Positions 54,069 through 63,093 of a stretch of 64,000 bases of DNA are shown here, piece by piece. How positions within the stretch are numbered: position 1 is the first letter of the stretch; every line of letters starts with the position of its first letter. Where the stretch lies: assembly GCA_000004985.1 (NCBI GenBank), contig GG738849.1; one strand, given 5' to 3'. The notes beneath the pieces are model-generated. The model searched no databases and was not told the DNA's origin. It worked only from the letters and a program-made list of their open reading frames with translations. The position numbers were made by a program, and so were the translations under genes. Source of the stretch: Naegleria gruberi. Taxonomy: Eukaryota.

Positions 54069-55162
54069 TTACTTCCACATTTGACCCAACTTCATAACTT
54101 GGTGAGTCTTTGGACACAAGTTACAGATACGTCCACAAGCCTTGTTTGGAGTCAAGACAAATTCAAACATGAGAGCAGCAAAAATAGCACCCAAGAATGG
54201 AGCAGTGTAATAAATCCAACAATGCTTATAGAATGACCAAGAAATGAGCATTGGACCCAAAGCACGAGCTGGATTCATACAAGCACCAGTTAAAGCACCA
54301 GCCATGGCATTGGCACCAAGGGCCAAACCAATGTACAAGGCAGAAACGATCTTGGCAATAGGTTCAAAGTTGACTTCCAAGAAGATCTTGCTTTCATTTT
54401 CAACCATCTTGCTTGCTTGGTGAGGAGCAGAAGCATATGATTGAGTATTCAAGTGCTTAACCTTGACGGCAGCTCCGAAAATAGTAGTGACAAACATGAA
54501 GGTCATCAAGAGTTCAGAAGTGAAACCTCTAAGAGCAGTAGTAATGTCATCATTTGGTAAAATGAAAACAGCACCATCAATACCACCAGAAATCCAAAGA
54601 GTTAATGATGATCCGACAACAGCACCCAAACATTGGGCAATCAAATACAAAATACCTGACATGATACCAATATTACGAGTAACCAAAACACAAATAGTAA
54701 CAGCTGGATTAACGTGACCACCAGAAATTGGAGCAAAGACGTGAATGACAATAATCAAACCGAAAATGTGGCCCAAAGAACCACGAATATAATCACCTGG
54801 AACTTGTGAAGAATATTGAGAACTCAAAGTACCAATAAGAACGAACTATTGCAGGTTTAGAATAAATAATGTACTAATAATTGACTACTTACCAGCATGG
54901 TACCAATAAATTCACCCAAAACAGCACGCCAATCGAAAATAATATCGGGATGGGTAAAGAATGGGACAATGTTTGATGTAATTGGGGCTTCTTCGACTGG
55001 TTCTTGTTTATCCTCTAATTCAATTTCGTTGGCAACCAAATCTTTTCTTTGTCCTCTTTCGAGTTCATCCATACTAGTCTTACTGGCACCTTTCTTTCCA
55101 GCTGGTCTGTCGTACTTTTCATCTTCATCATGAAGAGGTTCCTCATAACGGGAGGCTTTCAT
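54069..55162 (-). CDS. Aquaporin/aquaglyceroporin (MIP family) in two exons; the intron is about 54847..54893.
   Basis: It has two NPA boxes (SGGHVNPAVT and NPARALGP) and six transmembrane segments. The N-terminal exon MKASRYEEPLHDEDEKYDRPAGKK... splices in-frame via GTAAGTAG..CAATAG into FVLIGTLSSQYS. Confidence 0.85.
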
Positions 55163-55892: not shown

Positions 55893-58413
55893 TTAATTCT
55901 CCACCAAGTATTCTCTGATTGTCGTATGATAACCCTTCAGTAAATGCTCAACAAACTTTTCATCTCTATTCTGTTCAATAGTATTGATGAGGTGAAGTAA
56001 CTTTTTGGAGGGAACATCCTCACCCTTCTCCATCAAATAGGTTTCTAAATAGACCTTCTTTTCCTTTAGCTCAGATAGTATATTCTCTACACTTGTATTG
56101 TTGTTGAAGAGATTGAAAATAGAGTGGTATTGGAGAATCTTTTGATTTTGATTCTTATTTTCCAACTCGTACATCCATTCTACAATATTGATTAGGAAAG
56201 ATAATAATAAGAAATGTTGATGAAAACAAAGAATACTTACCATCACCTTCAACTTTGGATTCTCTGATAATTTCGTAAATAGTTTGTGGAGTATTGTCGT
56301 GGGTTGTGTCTTTCTGATGTGAGTTGGAGGAGAATACTGAATTGTGTGGGATTATTCTGTCGACTGGTCTGACAACAAAGTGCTCATTATTTGCAGTTTG
56401 CTCGTCGACAAGGATGGATATTCTGTACAATGAAGCCAAATGGCTTAACCTTTGAGACATTTTACATGCATTGGAAATAATAGAGTAGACTCTTGAGGTT
56501 TTAGTTCCCAAGTTTCCAACGTAAGAAGAGCGAGTAGAGATTCCTATGAAGCACTCGATCTGAGTTTCGCTCAGATCTTGTTGTTGGTTGATTTGATCCA
56601 TAACTTTTCTAATTTTAAGAGCTAACTCTTGAGCTACCAAGTTGGACTTTTTCTTCTTGCTTTCTATTATTATTTGGTATTCATCTAGGGCAATAATTTG
56701 ATAATCACATTGGAAAACCTTTGCTGCTTCTGAAATACTAGTCAAAATTTTAGGGAATATACTTGAAACTGTTTCATGAGAATGATTTTTCAACAAGTTA
56801 CTCAATCTTACATTCACTACTGAGCACTCTTTGTGTGTGAGACCTAATTTAAAAAGACCACCCTTGTGATGAGTACCACTATCATTTGTTCGATTTCTGT
56901 CACTAAAACTACTGTTCAACCCAGTGCTAACCGAAATATCTGTTCCTTCTTGCTTCTTTTCTGCAATAGGTTCTTCCTCAATGTTTTGATTCTGTTGTAA
57001 TTGGAGGAATACTGATTCAGGAACAAAGGCCTTAATTTCTTTTAACCACTTAACTGTAATGGACAAGCTTGTATAGACTTGATTTAATTCATTGAACATG
57101 GAATTGGAATGTCTGACATTCTCAAGCTCGAAGATTTTGATAAATTCAAATTGGTTTCTGAGATAGGAAATTGGTTTCAAAATAATCATTGAAAGCACGA
57201 CTGAAAATGCAATACCAATAAGCGTAATCAAAACGGCAACACCAACCGAAACACCAATACTAATGTGAGTGGTTTGCAAAATATCTTGTGTTACTACAAT
57301 GACATACATATCCCATTTGATATTTTCAAATTCGTAAACAACATGTCGCACAAGATAATCAACACCATTTGAGGAAATTGAAGTACCTTTTGGTAGCTTA
57401 CTGATATCACCAATAGTTGAATTGATATCTTTCATTAACTTGCCTGCATTTCTAGCCGAAATATCAAAAATACTCAATCTTGACTTTTCATCAAATGTTG
57501 TACAATTGATACTGCCAGCTATTACATAGTCGTTTGAGCTTTCTTTGATAATTACAAAACCTTGGTCGAAGACTTGGACCTTCTTCTCAAGAAAATCACT
57601 AATACCAGAAAGTGGCTTGACAATTCTTGCAATACCTTTCAAATGTTTGGTTCCTTGAGCGAATAATTGTTGGTCATACACCTTGGCACCAAATGAAATG
57701 GACAAGGTTCCGTTTGTAACAATGTAAGGATAACTGAAAGCTCCCTCCTTCCCAATTCTAGCTGCTTCACTCACAGCAACATAGTAAAAGTCCTTCTTTG
57801 CCACATTGTAAGGAGTATAATCAATAGTTTCATTTAACACAAGAAGAGTACCATTCAACAAATAGGTATCACGAATTGAGCCAATGAAACCAGGAGGTTG
57901 ATAAGAGTAGACAATTTCCTGTTTACCTTGTTTTCCAATAATGGTATAGGAATATCTTTCTGAAGGATTTGTAAATGCATAACCAGCACTCAACCCACTC
58001 ACTTTGAAAGGAGTATAAAAGTATTTTCTAAAGTAATCAGTTGTAGCCAATCCATAATTATAGTGATCTGCCATCGTCATGCCAGTATTTTTCATTTCGT
58101 TCAAAACCGAGTCAATATAAACACTCATCTTTTCTTCAAGCAAACCAAGAACATTTTCAGTTAGTTCATCCACTGATTGATTCATCAATACAAATACAGA
58201 GACATAGATAGAAACAGAACACAACAAGACAAGCATTATCATTGAGACAATTATAAATGTCTTTAAAGAGCAACAAGTTGTTTTCTTTCCAGTGCCAAAG
58301 AAGGACCCATCATCAGAGAAAGATGCAATACTCTGGTCCTCCTTATGATTTTCTATAACACTTGCAGTGGTGGGTGTTATCTTCATGTCTTTTTTAAAAA
58401 GAATTGTTTTCAT
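55893..58413 (-). CDS. Receptor-type membrane protein: TM1, a Cache-like extracellular sensor domain of about 300 aa, TM2, a linker, and a class-III nucleotide-cyclase-homology domain that is probably degenerate. One intron is about 56180..56240.
   Basis: The 774-aa ORF plus a downstream exon. The cyclase-homology block is ...CSVVNVRLSNL...VFQCDYQIIALDEYQIIIESKK...IECFIGISTRSSYVGNLGTKTSRVYSIISNACKMSQRLSHLASLYRISILVDEQTA. No canonical metal-binding Asp pair was found. Confidence 0.45.
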
Positions 58414-59169
58414 CAAATGTTTTAAAAAGTTGTAGTTTATGCACGAATCTGAACCTAAAGTCCAAAAGAACTTATGCACATTAGAATAATGCGTCTTTCG
58501 AAACTATCTCTTTCAGCACAAATAACAGCGATCTAACACTCCCACTTGGCAGAGATTTAGCTCAAGAACAAGCTGACACACAATAGGCATTGAATTTTGG
58601 CGCCTTTTTTCTGTACAATTTTAGCTAAATTGTCAGTTCAATTGATACACAACTATGCCTCGATAATCCTTTAGTATGTATCGGTGTAGTCGAGAATGTC
58701 TAAAATCACTTTTTTTGTTCTACCTCAATGATCAGGAAAGGATGGATTTTGATAAAATTTGTTTAAATTTCTTCTGAGATTGAGGAAAAGCCAATGAAAC
58801 CCATATCTAGTGTAAGTAAATTCATGCACTTTTTAGAGAAGTGAAGGCCAAGAAATAGTGTCTTCTTTTCATACGCCCAAGGAAGATGATCTATGTTATT
58901 TACAAGAAAGAATCTGACAATTATTAGATTTTGAACTCAAATTAGTTTAGAATAGGTTTAATTTTGTCTAATGAGTGGAAAAGTTGATTCCAAACAACAA
59001 CAAATGAAAAGTTTATTGAAGGAACTATTTGAATTGCGTTTGGTTTCTTACTTCTAAATCAAATGAAAGATCTATTGTAGGATCCAGAATGCTTTCAATC
59101 GTTGCTATGAGATATTGTGTAGATTCCAACGAGCAATCCAGCATTTTACGTTTATGGCACAACACGAAC

Positions 59170-59960
59170 AATCAGTGGATGATTAATTTTCTCCAGAATC
59201 TTCTTTGAAGAATCCAACAAGTTGTCACTAAGCATGGAGTAATTCTTCACTTCTGAAAGAGCTTGAAGAATATCTCTCAATATTTGAATACAGAACAGAC
59301 CTGGATCAGAAAAATTATGATCGTAAAGTTGACGCTCTGAAAGAAGTTTTTCTGTGACTGTTATTATATAATCATTGCTAACGTTTTACACAAAAAATTA
59401 CTCTCAATATGTTTTACAATATTCATGGCGTCCTGATTTTCATATCTTTTTTCGGATAATTTGAAGAAAATGTTGCATTGATTTTTCATTTCTCCATGAC
59501 CATAAATTTGCCTACTTCCTTCGCAATCGATTTCAGCATTCTTAATGCCATACTTTTCTAACGTACTAATATCGAATTGTAGAATATCTTTTTTAGATTT
59601 CGAATTATTCTCAGGTGTGTGGATTAACATGTCGTCTTTAATTTGAAGGGATAGCATTTCCTGATTAAGAATATTTAAATCATCTTGTAGCATTGCCTTA
59701 AAACAAAACATATCTAAATTAAGTAATAACAAGACAGTAAACTGTTTTTTATCTCACCAAAAAAATAACAAACACCATACCCAATAATGATTGTGTTATC
59801 ACTCAACTCTGTCTCACCTTTAGAAAAAATGGAGGTTCACGACCACCCAAATATCTTTCTTGAATTGAATAGTTGGCCTCTGGCAAGGAAATGAAATTTT
59901 GAAACGATCTCAAGTTAGATGTACGATGAACTTTTTGCATACTATCTTTGATATCTTTCA
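59170..59960 (-). pseudogene. Disrupted or unresolved ORF; a possible pseudogene or an unusually spliced gene.
   Basis: Exon 1 (MKDIKDSMQKVHRTSNLRSFQNFISLPEANYSIQERYLGGREPPFFLK|GTGAGA..) is followed by a second exon ending NIVKHIESNFLCKTLAMII*. The next frame (+1) continues for 70 aa; only a 24-nt gap is available, which is too short for an intron in this genome. Confidence 0.2.
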
Positions 59961-61679
59961 TGTCGAGATGTCAATTCCACCATTTTACTATAGACTTTTG
60001 ACGTTGTATCATAAAGTGTACTCCAACTCGCTCATTTTCCTTATAATCTACCTAGAATTGTATCACACAGTTATGGCATCTGTACTAGTTTTGAAACAAT
60101 TCATACCCTCTCATTCAGTCAATCAGGAAATGCTCAATGTCAACAATGTTTATCCATTTGAACACTCCATCTCAGAAAAAGTTCATCCAATGAGATACGA
60201 GTTTTTATTGTTACGGGTAGCATATACAATCAGAATTCAACATCTCAACAACGAAACCAGATCTAATCTTTAGTCAATAAAGTTGAAAACAACCATCTTG
60301 TTATGGCTTCTGCAGTTCTGTCATCTTTTAGTCTTAGTTTTTCAAAAGCATGTCCAATCTTGGCTTCGTCATCTCCATTAAAACCTATCAATGCGGCCAC
60401 AATGATTTCCAGGTCAGAACCTTCCGTATCATTGGCATCTTTTGCTCTATTTTGCTTAGTCCAACACCACTGAAGCAGTTAACAATTCTTGGATGGACTC
60501 AACTGACCATGTGGAACAAGTATCCATATCTAATTGGTGCTGTCTCATTCTGAAAATTCCTGTTTTCCTTTTTAGAGTTTGGATTTTGGAGAAAGGATTT
60601 TCTTTTTTAAAGTATTTTCGTTTGTTCTATTGATTGTTTTATATTCCTTACTTCCTTCAGATAGACCTTCTGTAGATGAACTTTCCACTTCTGGTATGAG
60701 TTTTACAACTTCTTCCCCAAGAAATCAACAGGATACTTGGACACCCAACTATCATATAAAAGCTCCATAAATTCTTTCAACCTAGATATGCTTCTTGAAA
60801 ATAAGTGTACCTGAAGGGAAGTCTCTGCCATTTTGTTTTTATTAGATGGTGTGCAATCTGTTCGATAAACTTGCCCATAAACATGGGCTTGTATTGCAAA
60901 TGCTCTTATTGTTCTTTTGGCTTGTTTTCCTCCAGGAACGTAAATAGCTAGTGTGAAATGGGTGGGTATTTCATACGTAACAGAAACTTGCTTGTTATCT
61001 CCATTTAGAAGCTAGACATGCCGTGGGCCATGGTAGTAGTTGTATTTTTTTTTGTGTTAAAAATACATACCAACCGTAGTCTCCTTAGTTAACAGTCTAT
61101 TACTACAGGAGTTTCAAATGATGAATTGGATGTTGAATATCAGCAAGTTTCTAATTAAATAATAATAAAACTCATTATACACAAACACTACTTCAAAGGC
61201 ACGGTCATGATTCAATAGAATTTACTGACAAAGAAACATGCTGGCACTTCATGAAACATTCAATAAGAAGATTTTCTCTCCAAACTTAATGCCAGGTTTT
61301 GAGATACTGGTGGGCTTTGAATTTAACGAAAATGATTTGCATGTTGTTTGCCTTCTTGATGTGTTTTGAAGCTAAGGGAGTAGTGCACAATTTCCTTTTT
61401 GCTTAAAATATTTACCTCAAAACGGCATGGTAACTATTGACGATGTGGAATGGGAGTCTTCTTTTCATTGAAGGACTAACCACTTTCTGCTTGCATTGTA
61501 AAATCTCTAAACCTAAAAATAACTTCAAATACAAGATTGAAACAACAAAACCTTCAAATCCAAAAATACATATTCTAATTTTAAATTCAAACCAAAAAAA
61601 ACAACTTTTTGTGTAAACCTACTCGTTAAATTGCCTCTTTTGCAAAACGAAAATATAATTAAACCTATTAATTTCAAAA

Positions 61680-63093
61680 ATGATGATTAACAATACTATT
61701 AACGCTCAAGACAATATTGCTCTCTACAAGTACAAGCAACAATTAGAACAATTGGAAAATTGCAAAGGCTTGGGAACATCTGTTATTACCTTGTTGGTTA
61801 GTTGCAAGACTTCATTGACTCAAGTTATTTCTCAAATGGATCAACGTTTGACAAAGTCTAACAATATCAAGTCGTGTATTTAACAGGAATAGTGTTCAAG
61901 TGGCTACAAGGACTGTTATATCCAGATTAAAGCTATTGAAACAGACACCTGCTAATGGTTTGGCAATTTTCTGTGGAATGGTAAATCCAGATTCTGCTCC
62001 AGGTTTATTCTCTGATGATGAATCTAGTTTGGTGGTTGATAACGGTTTAGAAGGCTCTGACAATAATGCACATGTTGATTTGAAGAAATTGTGTGTTATG
62101 ATTGAACCACCAAATCCAATTGACAGCAATCTTTACTATTGTGACGATTGTTTCCATGTTGAACAGTTGAGAAGTCAATTGCAAGAATTTAATTCTGGAA
62201 AAACTTATGGTGTAATTGTTATTACAGGTACAGGTACTTTGTATGGTACTTTACGTGGAAATACCAGTAGTATTTTACGTGAATTTTCTCATGAACTTCC
62301 AAAGAAACATTCTAAGGGAGGTCAATCTCGTGAAAGATTTGCTAGAAATAGAGAAATTGCCAAGAATGAATATCTCAAGATTATTGCAGAGAAGGCAAAT
62401 GGTTTATTCGTTTCTTCAGCTCTCAATGCTCCAACTGTTGATGCTATTATTCTTGCTGGATGTGCAGAATTGAAGAATGAATTACTTTCTCTCAAATCTG
62501 ATTGTTTAGACTATAGATTGAGAACTAGAATTTTAACTGTTGTTGATGTTGCATATGGTGGCAGACCTGGATTTTATCAAGCTATTCAACTTGCACAAAA
62601 TGAAATTCAAGATTCTAGATTCTTGGAAGAGAGTGAAACCATTCAAGAGCTATTGAATTTACTTTCCAAAGGATCCAAGGCTGTTGTTGGTTTGGAAGAA
62701 ACCATGTTTGCTATTGCAAGTGGTTGGGCTAGTAAGGTAATCTTGTGCGAAAAGCAATCATCCTTGAAGAGAGTTACACTCTCTGATGATTCTGTTCACT
62801 ATTTGGAAGAAGACAAGATTAAATTCTTATTGGAAAGAAATTCTGTCAAGGTTGCTAGAATTGAAAACCTTATTGATTATTTAGTTGACAATTACAAGAA
62901 AATTGGTATTGACAAGTTGTCTCTTGTTACTGATTGTACTAATGAGGGAAATATGTTTTTGAAGGGCTTCTCAGGTATTGGTGCTATTCTAAAGTTTGAT
63001 GTAAATGTTGCCTCTCTTCTCTCTGAGGAGAAGGATAACTTTGAAGCTTTTGAAGAGGAAGCCTACAATGAAGACTTGTCCGAATTCTACTAA
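61680..63093 (+). CDS. ERF1: Divergent eukaryotic release factor 1 (eRF1) with NIKS, YxCxxxF and GGQ motifs intact. The coding sequence is split by an in-frame TAA (61881..61883) with continuation in the +1 frame (ORFs 61680..61883 and 61852..63093).
   Basis: Frame 0 reads ...GLGTSVITLLVSCKTSLTQVISQMDQRLTKSNNIKSCI*. The +1 frame reads NRNSVQVATRTVISRLKLLKQTPANGLAIFCGMVN...YYCDDCFH...GVIVITGTGTLYGTLRGNTSSILREFSHELPKKHSKGGQSRERFARNRE...AILAGCAELKNEL...VVDVAYGGRPGFYQAIQL..., and is colinear with human eRF1 [38 protein letters not shown]...YLCDNKFH...KKHGRGGQSALRFARLR. The stop is TAA at 63091-63093. Confidence 0.8.

What the first reader, a model, noticed from the sequence alone, without database searches (positions are those of the whole stretch)
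55893..58413. Two-transmembrane Cache-like sensor fused to a degenerate class-III cyclase-homology domain
The architecture is TM1, an extracellular domain of about 300 aa with double-Cache-like composition, TM2, a HAMP-like linker, then a cyclase-homology domain. The cyclase domain (…IECFIGISTRSSYVGNLGTKTSRVYSIISNACKMSQRLSHLA…) apparently lacks the canonical metal-binding aspartates. Among eukaryotes this layout is typical of trypanosomatid and some amoebozoan or chytrid receptor cyclases, not of standard fungal or animal genomes. It may be a pseudo-cyclase that signals by dimerisation. It is the one clearly accessory, lineage-restricted gene in an otherwise housekeeping window.
Basis: inference. 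Interest (0 to 1): 0.5.

Follow-up and report, generated by a model that had tools for sequence, protein, structure and literature searches.

The report
Naegleria dCache-HAMP receptor with dead cyclase domain
This is an intact Naegleria gene for a bacterial-style membrane sensor whose cyclase-like output domain keeps its fold but has lost four of six catalytic residues, and it belongs to a large, uncharacterised family of such receptors in Naegleria and Willaertia.

Summary
Window 55893-58413 (minus strand) is a two-exon gene with a 61-nt intron, encoding 819 aa. The layout is cytosolic N-terminus, TM1, about 300 aa double-Cache ectodomain, TM2, HAMP, a disordered low-complexity insert, a class III cyclase-homology domain (CHD) and a helical tail.

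At the six catalytic positions, validated by relatives that read D-K-D-D-N-R, this protein reads R-I-D-N-K-R. The first metal Asp, the substrate Lys and Asp and the transition-state Asn are lost. The second Asp and the Arg remain.

The source is Naegleria gruberi or a near-identical strain. The protein is one of many paralogues in N. gruberi, N. lovaniensis, N. fowleri and Willaertia magna, nearly all degenerate in the same way.

It is most likely a ligand-sensing pseudo-cyclase receptor; its output mechanism is unknown. Interest is moderate.

The parts
55893..58413 (-). Whole gene: exon 1 at 58413-56241, intron at 56240-56180 (61 nt, GTAAGT...TAG), exon 2 at 56179-55893 including the TAA stop. 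Product is 819 aa. An alternative start is Met10 at 58386.
   Evidence: ORF list and sequence. Spliced translation. tblastn of the spliced protein back to the window is 100% in two blocks. Orthologues read through the junction.
58267..58413 (-). Cytosolic N-terminal tail, residues 1-49. Disordered and poorly conserved, with a basic stretch (GTGKK) just before TM1.
   Evidence: pLDDT below 50 for residues 1-47. 13-21% identity to the N. lovaniensis and N. fowleri orthologues.
58186..58266 (-). TM1, residues about 50-76.
   Evidence: Kyte-Doolittle peak. Start of a continuous helix 50-119 in the model.
57265..58185 (-). Extracellular double-Cache (dCache_1-like) sensor, residues about 77-383. 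It carries six N-glycosylation sequons. The pocket motif reads Y202-x4-K207-x-F209-Y210...Y230, a variant of YxxxxRxWY.
57178..57264 (-). TM2, residues about 384-412.
   Evidence: Second and only other hydrophobic peak. Part of helix 375-426 in the model.
56977..57177 (-). HAMP-like two-helix module plus the helix that normally leads into the cyclase domain (FVPESVFLQLQQ), residues about 413-479. P414, E442 and P465 are nearly invariant in the family.
   Evidence: Aligned residue-for-residue with the HAMP (PF00672) of kinase P0007. Model helices 375-426, 441-461 and 466-479. Conservation. No direct Pfam HAMP hit.
56857..56976 (-). Disordered low-complexity insert rich in S, N, T, Q and K, residues about 480-519. 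It separates the HAMP-exit helix from strand beta-1 of the CHD. It is 45-80 aa long in Naegleria and related members and absent from catalytically complete relatives.
   Evidence: pLDDT below 50 for residues 480-519. Alignment A5 shows the gap in P0077, P0137 and P0106. Only 10-15% identity to the N. lovaniensis and N. fowleri orthologues.
56257..56856 (-). Degenerate class III cyclase-homology domain, residues about 520-719.
56806..56808 (-). Codon of Arg536, at the position of the first metal-binding Asp.
   Evidence: HMM-based alignment in which canonical relatives show D at this column. The N. lovaniensis and N. fowleri orthologues also have R.
56695..56697 (-). Codon of Ile573, at the position of the substrate-specifying Lys.
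   Evidence: (aligned to sAC K334).
56683..56685 (-). Codon of Asp577, the retained second metal-binding Asp.
56449..56472 (-). Segment N648-A-C-K651-M-S-Q-R655. The substrate Asp is Asn, the transition-state Asn is Lys, and the transition-state Arg is retained.
   Evidence: hhalign pairs IISNACKMSQRL with VLGDAVNLGSRL of a canonical cyclase. Also. Codons read directly.
55893..56256 (-). C-terminal helical tail, residues 720-819. It spans the intron and starts with the conserved DEWxYELE motif. A comparable 90-135 aa tail is present in most family members, including canonical ones.
Evidence: Tail lengths. Alignments. A weak TPR_21 hit in relative P0068.

Best explanation
The gene encodes a plasma-membrane receptor of the bacterial dCache_1-HAMP-cyclase type, in Naegleria gruberi or a near-identical strain.

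Shown:
- The protein has two TM helices around a double-Cache ectodomain, then a HAMP module, then a domain with the class III cyclase fold.
- That domain carries Arg, Ile, Asn and Lys where a working cyclase needs the first metal Asp, the substrate Lys, the substrate Asp and the transition-state Asn.
- The same kind of degeneracy is shared by nearly all of the many Naegleria and Willaertia paralogues.
- Orthologues in three Naegleria species keep the domain at about 38% identity, against about 15% for the adjacent disordered linker.

Inferred:
- A small extracellular ligand binds the membrane-distal Cache module. The aromatic pocket residues are kept, while the position of the ligand-contacting Arg varies between paralogues.
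- The signal passes through TM2 and HAMP.
- The CHD no longer makes cAMP or cGMP as a homodimer. It serves instead as a conserved non-catalytic dimerisation or signalling module. It might bind a nucleotide, pair with and modulate an active cyclase paralogue, or present the helical tail and the Ser/Thr-rich insert to partners.

The family most likely arose from a catalytically complete dCache-HAMP adenylate cyclase of bacterial type. It then expanded and lost catalysis in vahlkampfiid amoebae.
For: Architecture and folds.

Catalytic columns: ten relatives read D-K-D-D-N-R, which validates the columns. The query reads R-I-D-N-K-R and its N. lovaniensis and N. fowleri orthologues read R-I-D-E-K-H.

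Bimodal split: among 132 aligned CHDs, 10 keep all 6 canonical residues and 116 keep 2 or fewer.

Lineage: named members are N. gruberi, N. lovaniensis, N. fowleri and Willaertia magna.

Constraint: an intact 819-aa reading frame. Domain identity to the N. lovaniensis orthologue is 52% (ectodomain), 46% (HAMP), 38% (CHD), 34% (tail) and 15% (linker).

Insert: it splits the HAMP-to-CHD connection only in the degenerate eukaryotic members.

Precedent: PDB 6yii is deposited as a 'class III adenylyl cyclase-like ATP-binding protein', so non-catalytic CHDs exist.

Pocket: aromatic positions are conserved while the Arg position varies, with Q 16, T 8, R 7 and K 6 of 57.
Against: No activity, expression or localisation data exist for this protein or any paralogue.

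Inactivity is inferred from residues only. From my own recollection, not checked here, M. tuberculosis Rv1900c works with non-canonical substrate-binding residues.

Asp577 and Arg655 are retained, so a residual or heteromeric activity is not excluded.

The disordered insert could mean the sensor and the CHD are no longer coupled at all.

The ligand and the downstream partner are unknown.

The structure is a monomer prediction. The dimer was not modelled.
Confidence: 0.6

Rival explanations
1. It is still part of an active cyclase, either through non-canonical chemistry or as one half of a heterodimer. A catalytically complete paralogue would supply both metal aspartates, and this chain would supply Arg655 and the base-binding face. 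That would parallel the C1/C2 halves of mammalian adenylate cyclases or sGC alpha/beta.
For: The best PDB sequence match of the family profile is the C2 domain of soluble adenylate cyclase, which itself lacks the metal aspartates. Asp577 and Arg655 are retained. Heterodimerisation that complements missing residues is common in class III cyclases (PMC8815786). Naegleria is reported to have at least 81 cyclases to choose from (PMC9928731).
Against: This chain is defective in both half-sites. It lacks the first metal Asp for one half, and the Lys, Asp and Asn for the other. In a heterodimer both composite sites would therefore be incomplete, and inhibition of the partner is more likely than complementation (inference). 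The Asn and Arg columns are essentially unconstrained across the family. That is not expected if they still did chemistry.
Confidence: 0.17
2. The CHD is a nucleotide-binding, non-turnover allosteric module. ATP or GTP occupancy, rather than an extracellular ligand alone, would set the receptor's state, as in the P. aeruginosa class III cyclase-like ATP-binding protein.
Against: The residues that hold the triphosphate and metals (first Asp) and the base (Lys, Asp) are gone. There is no evidence of binding. This is a refinement of the main explanation rather than a true alternative.
Confidence: 0.13
3. It is a decaying, functionless duplicate in a large cyclase gene family.
For: Catalytic residues are lost. 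There is a long disordered insert. The reference N. gruberi annotation holds only a partial 351-aa model.
Against: The reading frame is an intact 819 aa with a clean intron. Full-length orthologues exist in N. lovaniensis and N. fowleri, with the same R-I-D pattern and 52% identity in the ectodomain. The partial reference model is explained by a 2.7-kb contig end and a mis-called intron. Dozens of paralogue clusters keep the same architecture.
Confidence: 0.07

Closest known systems
Bacterial-type dCache_1-HAMP-class III adenylate cyclases. Examples are Spirochaetales MAG protein MBN2443529.1 (P0106) and metagenome proteins P0077 and P0137. Upadhyay et al. 2016 (PMC4822843) place M. tuberculosis Rv2435c in this architecture and mention one 'bacterial-type adenylate cyclase' with Cache in Naegleria.
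   Same: Same domain order end to end: TM, dCache, TM, HAMP, CHD, and a C-terminal helical tail of about 90 aa. The GNxG motif in the CHD is shared. The full-length family profile matches at about E=1e-25 to 1e-30.
   Different: Those proteins have all six catalytic residues (D-K-D-D-N-R) and Pfam-significant Guanylate_cyc domains (E=1e-24 to 4e-27). They have no insert between HAMP and CHD. P0077 keeps the full YxxxxRxWY motif, while P0137 and P0106 keep only its RxWY core. The window protein has R-I-D-N-K-R, a 40-aa disordered insert and K/F in the motif.
Uncharacterised Naegleria and Willaertia paralogues. Examples are N. lovaniensis XP_044554234.1 and XP_044552971.1 (UniProt name 'Guanylate cyclase domain-containing protein'), N. 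gruberi XP_002680283.1, XP_002675079.1 and XP_002679224.1 ('predicted protein'), and W. magna KAL9648654.1.
   Same: Same family, same architecture, same loss of catalytic residues, same low-complexity insert. Probable orthologues P0001 (N. lovaniensis) and P0002 (N. fowleri) are 41% identical over 93-97% of the query.
   Different: Each paralogue has its own residues at the degenerate catalytic columns and at the ligand-contacting Arg position of the Cache pocket. The reference N. gruberi copy of this particular gene is only a truncated, mis-spliced 351-aa model.
Catalytically incomplete CHDs that work in (pseudo)heterodimers: the C2 domains of soluble and transmembrane adenylate cyclases, and the sGC subunits.
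   Same: The class III fold lacks the metal aspartates. The sAC C2 domain is the best PDB sequence match of the family profile.
   Different: From established knowledge, those domains keep the complementary half-site (Lys, Asp/Thr, Asn, Arg) and are fused or paired with a partner that carries the aspartates. Here both half-sites are defective and no partner is known.
P. aeruginosa class III adenylyl cyclase-like ATP-binding protein (PDB 6yii, depositors' title).
   Different: From established knowledge, these have a single TM helix, a periplasmic-binding-protein-like ectodomain, no HAMP, and are catalytically active. The window protein has two TM helices, dCache and HAMP, and is degenerate.

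Membership tests
Class III nucleotidyl cyclase (as a fold / homology family) | Cyclase-homology domain fold (beta-alpha-alpha-beta-beta-alpha-beta core) and significant profile similarity | tested here: met
Class III nucleotidyl cyclase (as a fold / homology family) | Pfam PF00211 Guanylate_cyc at or above the gathering score (21.9 bits) | tested here: not met
   16.4 bits, E=0.0073 for the query. Only 1 of 5 close family members gives any hit. More distant relatives pass: P0074 (25.1 bits), P0068 (40.7 bits) and canonical P0077 (87.6 bits).
Class III nucleotidyl cyclase (as a working enzyme) | Two metal-binding aspartates | tested here: not met
   The first is Arg536. The second is retained as Asp577. 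The columns are validated by relatives that read D and D.
Class III nucleotidyl cyclase (as a working enzyme) | Substrate-specifying pair (Lys and Asp for ATP; Glu and Cys for GTP) | tested here: not met
   Ile573 and Asn648.
Class III nucleotidyl cyclase (as a working enzyme) | Transition-state Asn and Arg | tested here: not met
   The Asn is Lys651. The Arg is kept as Arg655. Both columns vary freely across the family.
Class III nucleotidyl cyclase (as a working enzyme) | Formation of cAMP or cGMP from ATP or GTP | not testable with these tools
   This needs an enzyme assay of the recombinant cytosolic domain.
dCache_1 (double Cache extracellular sensor) | Long N-terminal helix followed by two PAS-like (PDC) modules, placed between two TM helices | tested here: met
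dCache_1 (double Cache extracellular sensor) | Pfam PF02743 at or above the gathering score (45 bits) | tested here: not met
   No hit for the query. Paralogues give E=3e-6 and 1e-3, sub-threshold. Homology is nevertheless supported by hhalign probability 94.6% and by family-profile hits to dCache_1-HAMP kinases at E=4e-42 and 1e-37.
dCache_1AA (amino-acid-binding subclass; Gumerov et al. 2022, PMC8915833) | Motif Y-x4-R-x-W-Y ... Y ... D in the distal module | tested here: not met
   The query reads Y202-x4-K207-x-F209-Y210, with Y230 invariant. The Arg and Trp are replaced. Relative P0077 has the exact N-terminal part, YNLLTRAWY. The assignment of the C-terminal Y and D is uncertain.
HAMP | Two amphipathic helices joined by a connector, directly after TM2, starting with a conserved Pro | tested here: inconclusive
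   P414 and E442 are nearly invariant. Model helices run to residue 426 and over 441-461. The region aligns with the PF00672-bearing region of kinase P0007. There is no direct Pfam HAMP hit, and the four-helix dimer was not modelled.
Trypanosomatid-type receptor adenylate cyclase | Single TM helix, periplasmic-binding-protein-like ectodomain, active CHD (established knowledge) | tested here: not met
   Two TM helices, a dCache ectodomain, HAMP and a degenerate CHD.

The most novel reading that the evidence does not exclude
Vahlkampfiid amoebae (Naegleria, Willaertia) acquired a bacterial dCache-HAMP adenylate cyclase and expanded it into a multi-paralogue chemoreceptor family. In this family the cyclase domain has been converted into a non-catalytic output module, and a new Ser/Thr-rich insert has been added. 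That would be a eukaryotic chemosensory pathway that uses a cyclase fold without making cyclic nucleotides. Paralogues would be tuned to different ligands through the variable Arg position of the Cache pocket.
Probability: 0.4. Interest if true: 0.55.

Novelty: new variant of a known kind. Interest (0 to 1): 0.4.

Why it matters
Naegleria genomes are reported to hold some 81 cyclases (PMC9928731), and these counts are read as heavy reliance on cyclic-nucleotide signalling. If a whole dCache-HAMP branch is catalytically dead, that count overstates cAMP/cGMP-producing capacity. It also hides a separate class of surface receptors.

The earlier census found Cache in 'a single protein' in Naegleria (PMC4822843). 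The domains here are too diverged for Pfam but clear by profile and structure, so bacterial-type extracellular sensing is more widespread in this lineage than thought.

Orthologues exist in the pathogen N. fowleri, and surface receptors with a bacterial-type ectodomain and no human counterpart could be of interest there.

The family would also be a natural system for asking what a class III cyclase fold does once catalysis is lost.

Tried and rejected
- Exact-sequence look-ups of two other window ORFs found nothing on record. The organism was instead identified from a partial N. gruberi protein that is identical apart from a mis-called intron.
- The first AF2 run, with only 5 sequences, gave pLDDT 46 and was discarded. 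The 57-sequence alignment gave 84.7.
- The afdb50 fold library was unavailable, so phyletic tracing by structure was not possible.
- The third word-indexed homologue search, with the 57-sequence alignment, returned few new proteins and no extra taxa. It did give strong hits to dCache_1-HAMP kinases.
- I considered that Arg/Lys at the first-Asp position forms a compensating salt bridge with the retained Asp/Glu at the second. The counts show no association: 25 basic/acidic against 24 basic/neutral and 30 neutral/acidic. The idea was dropped.
- tblastn with all family members found no second family member in the window.
- Rfam, tandem-repeat and Pfam scans of the ORF-poor 3.2 kb upstream found nothing.
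- Literature searches for pseudo-cyclase terms found no description of this family.
Full report
**Gene model.** The region 55893-58413 carries one gene on the minus strand. A 774-aa ORF (56155-58479) and a 119-aa ORF (55893-56252) overlap in different frames. The sequence shows a GTAAGT...TTGTAG intron of 61 nt at 56240-56180. Splicing it gives an 819-aa protein that starts at the ATG at 58413. Met10 at 58386 is an alternative start. N. lovaniensis and N. fowleri homologues read straight across the junction (VEGD|EWMYELENKN against VLEDEWLYELESKN), which confirms the splice.

**Source organism.** The window has about 33% G+C and short introns. A 351-aa 'predicted protein, partial [Naegleria gruberi]' matches the N-terminal part of this protein. 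It is identical except that its model splices out residues about 118-162 and stops at the end of a 2.7-kb contig. The spliced-out segment is conserved in orthologues (YNYGL...PSERYSYTI), so the window's continuous reading is the correct one. The window therefore comes from N. gruberi or a near-identical strain. It gives the first full-length version of this gene among the sequences I could see.

**Is the architecture real?** On the single sequence the evidence is weak. Pfam Guanylate_cyc scores 16.4 bits (E=0.0073), below the 21.9-bit cut-off, and there is no Cache or HAMP hit. phmmer against PDB gives CyaB at E=0.066. Family information changes this.

- A profile of five close homologues searched against 1.84 billion representatives finds 72 proteins at E<=1e-30 and 807 at E<=1e-10. 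About 50 of these match over the full length.
- A profile of the CHD region of 40 members hits 53 solved class III cyclases. The best is the C2 domain of soluble adenylate cyclase at E=3.1e-15, followed by Cya2, CyaB and photoactivated cyclases.
- The family profile also hits dCache_1-HAMP histidine kinases at E=4e-42 and 1e-37. hhalign aligns residues 49-460 (TM1, ectodomain, TM2, HAMP) with such a kinase at 94.6% probability.
- With a 57-sequence alignment AlphaFold2 gives pLDDT 84.7. Only residues 1-47, 480-519, 696-705 and 722-724 are disordered.
- There are exactly two hydrophobic segments (about 50-76 and 384-412), and six N-glycosylation sequons lie between them.

**Catalytic residues.** I aligned 146 CHD segments to the family HMM. 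Ten relatives read D-K-D-D-N-R at the six canonical columns: two metal aspartates, substrate Lys, substrate Asp, transition-state Asn and Arg. P0006, an independent CHASE2 cyclase, reads the same. This validates the columns. Three of the relatives I scanned, P0077, P0137 and P0106, also have strong Pfam cyclase domains (E=1e-24 to 4e-27) and dCache_1 hits.

| Position | Canonical | This protein |
|---|---|---|
| First metal Asp | D | Arg536 |
| Substrate Lys | K | Ile573 |
| Second metal Asp | D | Asp577 (kept) |
| Substrate Asp | D | Asn648 |
| Transition-state Asn | N | Lys651 |
| Transition-state Arg | R | Arg655 (kept) |

Four of the six residues are lost.

Across 132 CHDs with no gaps at these columns the distribution is bimodal. 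Ten keep all six residues, 116 keep two or fewer, and only six are intermediate. That is the pattern expected for an active branch and a dead branch. The first-Asp column is mostly Arg or Lys (28 each). The Asn and Arg columns look unconstrained.

**Further family features.** Alignment with the canonical relatives shows that Naegleria-type members carry a 45-80 aa low-complexity insert. In this protein it is residues 480-519, rich in S, N, T, Q and K, and disordered in the model. It sits between the helix that leaves the HAMP (FVPESVFLQLQQ) and the G-x-x-x-K-E segment that leads into strand beta-1 of the CHD. The canonical relatives have no such insert. In regulated class III cyclases this junction transmits the signal, by established knowledge. 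A floppy insert there fits a changed output mode.

Nearly all members, canonical ones included, carry a 90-135 aa helical tail after the CHD. In the degenerate eukaryotic members aligned it begins with the conserved DEWxYELE motif.

In the distal Cache module the aromatic pocket positions are kept (Y202, F/Y/W209, Y210, Y230). The position of the ligand-contacting Arg of the dCache_1 amino-acid motif (YxxxxRxWY, PMC8915833) is Lys in this protein. It varies among paralogues, with Q 16, T 8, R 7 and K 6 of 57. Canonical relative P0077 has the exact YNLLTRAWY. This suggests ligand diversification among paralogues but does not identify a ligand.

**Distribution.** The named members are from four species.

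- N. gruberi: at least seven further clusters at 50% identity, all 'predicted' or 'hypothetical' proteins.
- N. lovaniensis: named 'Guanylate cyclase domain-containing protein' by UniProt.
- N. fowleri.
- Willaertia magna.

Catalytically complete relatives include a Spirochaetales MAG protein and several metagenome proteins. One of these, P0077, lies on a 35% G+C contig beside an ABCG-like transporter, an RCC1-repeat protein and a hybrid histidine kinase. From the same JGI sample comes a degenerate ankyrin-fused member, which lies beside a DHHC palmitoyltransferase and proteasome subunit Rpn3. Some catalytically complete members may therefore also be eukaryotic.

Upadhyay et al. [quoted passage not shown] The family seen here is much larger, but most members fall below Pfam thresholds. 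I found no paper describing its degeneracy.

**Constraint.** Identity to the N. lovaniensis orthologue differs by domain.

| Domain | Identity to N. lovaniensis orthologue |
|---|---|
| Ectodomain | 52% |
| HAMP | 46% |
| CHD | 38% |
| C-terminal tail | 34% |
| Disordered insert | 15% |

The CHD is therefore maintained, though less tightly than the sensor. Together with the intact frame, this argues against a decaying duplicate.

**Mechanism.** The best-supported reading is a ligand-sensing receptor whose cyclase-fold domain no longer cyclises nucleotides as a homodimer. The domain would act instead as a dimerisation or signalling module.

Complementation in a heterodimer is less likely than it first appears, because this chain is defective in both half-sites. 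Pairing with a complete cyclase would leave both composite sites incomplete and would more probably inhibit the partner. This is an inference. I recall from memory, and did not check here, that cyclases with non-canonical substrate residues exist (M. tuberculosis Rv1900c). Asp577 and Arg655 also remain.

A nucleotide-binding, non-catalytic role has a precedent in PDB 6yii. I tested one structural idea, that a basic residue at the first-Asp site pairs with the retained acidic residue at the second. It has no covariation support.

The neighbours are ordinary: a GH47 mannosidase, an aquaporin, an eRF1-like factor, an RRM/PWI protein, an UNC-93/MFS transporter and an importin-like protein. No second family member lies in the window. 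'Lineage-restricted' is fair for the degenerate branch. The gene is, however, one of many paralogues, not a singular oddity.

**Verdict.** The finding is real and the architecture is correctly read. The gene is a catalytically degenerate, insert-bearing variant of a known receptor-cyclase type, belonging to an unstudied expanded family in vahlkampfiid amoebae. It is of moderate interest. The fold assignments and the loss of catalytic residues are well supported. The output mechanism is unknown and needs the experiments listed under next steps.

Noticed in passing
window 57925-58413 compared with protein P0005: The public N. gruberi annotation of this gene is a 351-aa partial model on a 2.7-kb contig. 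It removes residues about 118-162 as an intron (MTMAD|GIGIGKQGKQ). Orthologues conserve that segment, so the window's uninterrupted reading is right and the public model is mis-spliced and truncated.
   Followed up: yes
window 56857-56976 (residues 480-519), and the same position in paralogues (alignment A5): A 45-80 aa insert rich in Ser, Thr, Asn and Gln sits exactly between the HAMP-exit helix and strand beta-1 of the cyclase domain. It occurs only in the degenerate eukaryotic members. It could be a phosphorylation or partner-binding region.
   Followed up: partly
window 58480-61680: About 3.2 kb upstream of the gene has no ORF longer than 124 aa, no Pfam hit on the longest ORFs, no Rfam family and no tandem repeat. 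This is unusually empty for this gene-dense window. It could hold a multi-intron gene, a non-coding RNA or a long promoter region.
   Followed up: partly
window 54069-55162 (minus strand): An aquaporin (MIP family, E=2.6e-39) lies immediately downstream. It is split over two ORFs (54069-54827 and 54857-55162), presumably by a short intron.
   Followed up: partly
window 61680-63093 (plus strand): An eRF1-like protein with eRF1 domains 2 and 3. The N-terminal part seems to lie in a separate short ORF (61680-61883). I did not determine whether it is eRF1 proper or a Pelota/Dom34-type paralogue.
   Followed up: no
L001 6001-8259 and L002 5368-8877 (JGI sample 3300062347): Two contigs of about 35% G+C from one 'metagenome' carry family members beside eukaryote-type genes (Rpn3, DHHC, RCC1, ABCG-like). 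One member is a catalytically complete dCache-HAMP cyclase. The other is a degenerate version with an N-terminal ankyrin-repeat domain. The sample probably contains an unsequenced protist that has both active and dead branches.
   Followed up: partly
residue 207 of the window protein (codon 57793-57795) and the same column in 57 family members: The position equivalent to the ligand-carboxylate-binding Arg of the dCache_1 amino-acid motif varies among paralogues (Q, T, R, K), while the flanking aromatic residues are conserved. This is as expected if paralogues recognise different ligands.
   Followed up: partly
protein P0041 (N. gruberi XP_002669967.1): One N. gruberi paralogue has RCC1 repeats at its N-terminus in front of the C-terminal half of the family architecture. 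This is either a domain-shuffled variant or a fused gene model.
   Followed up: no
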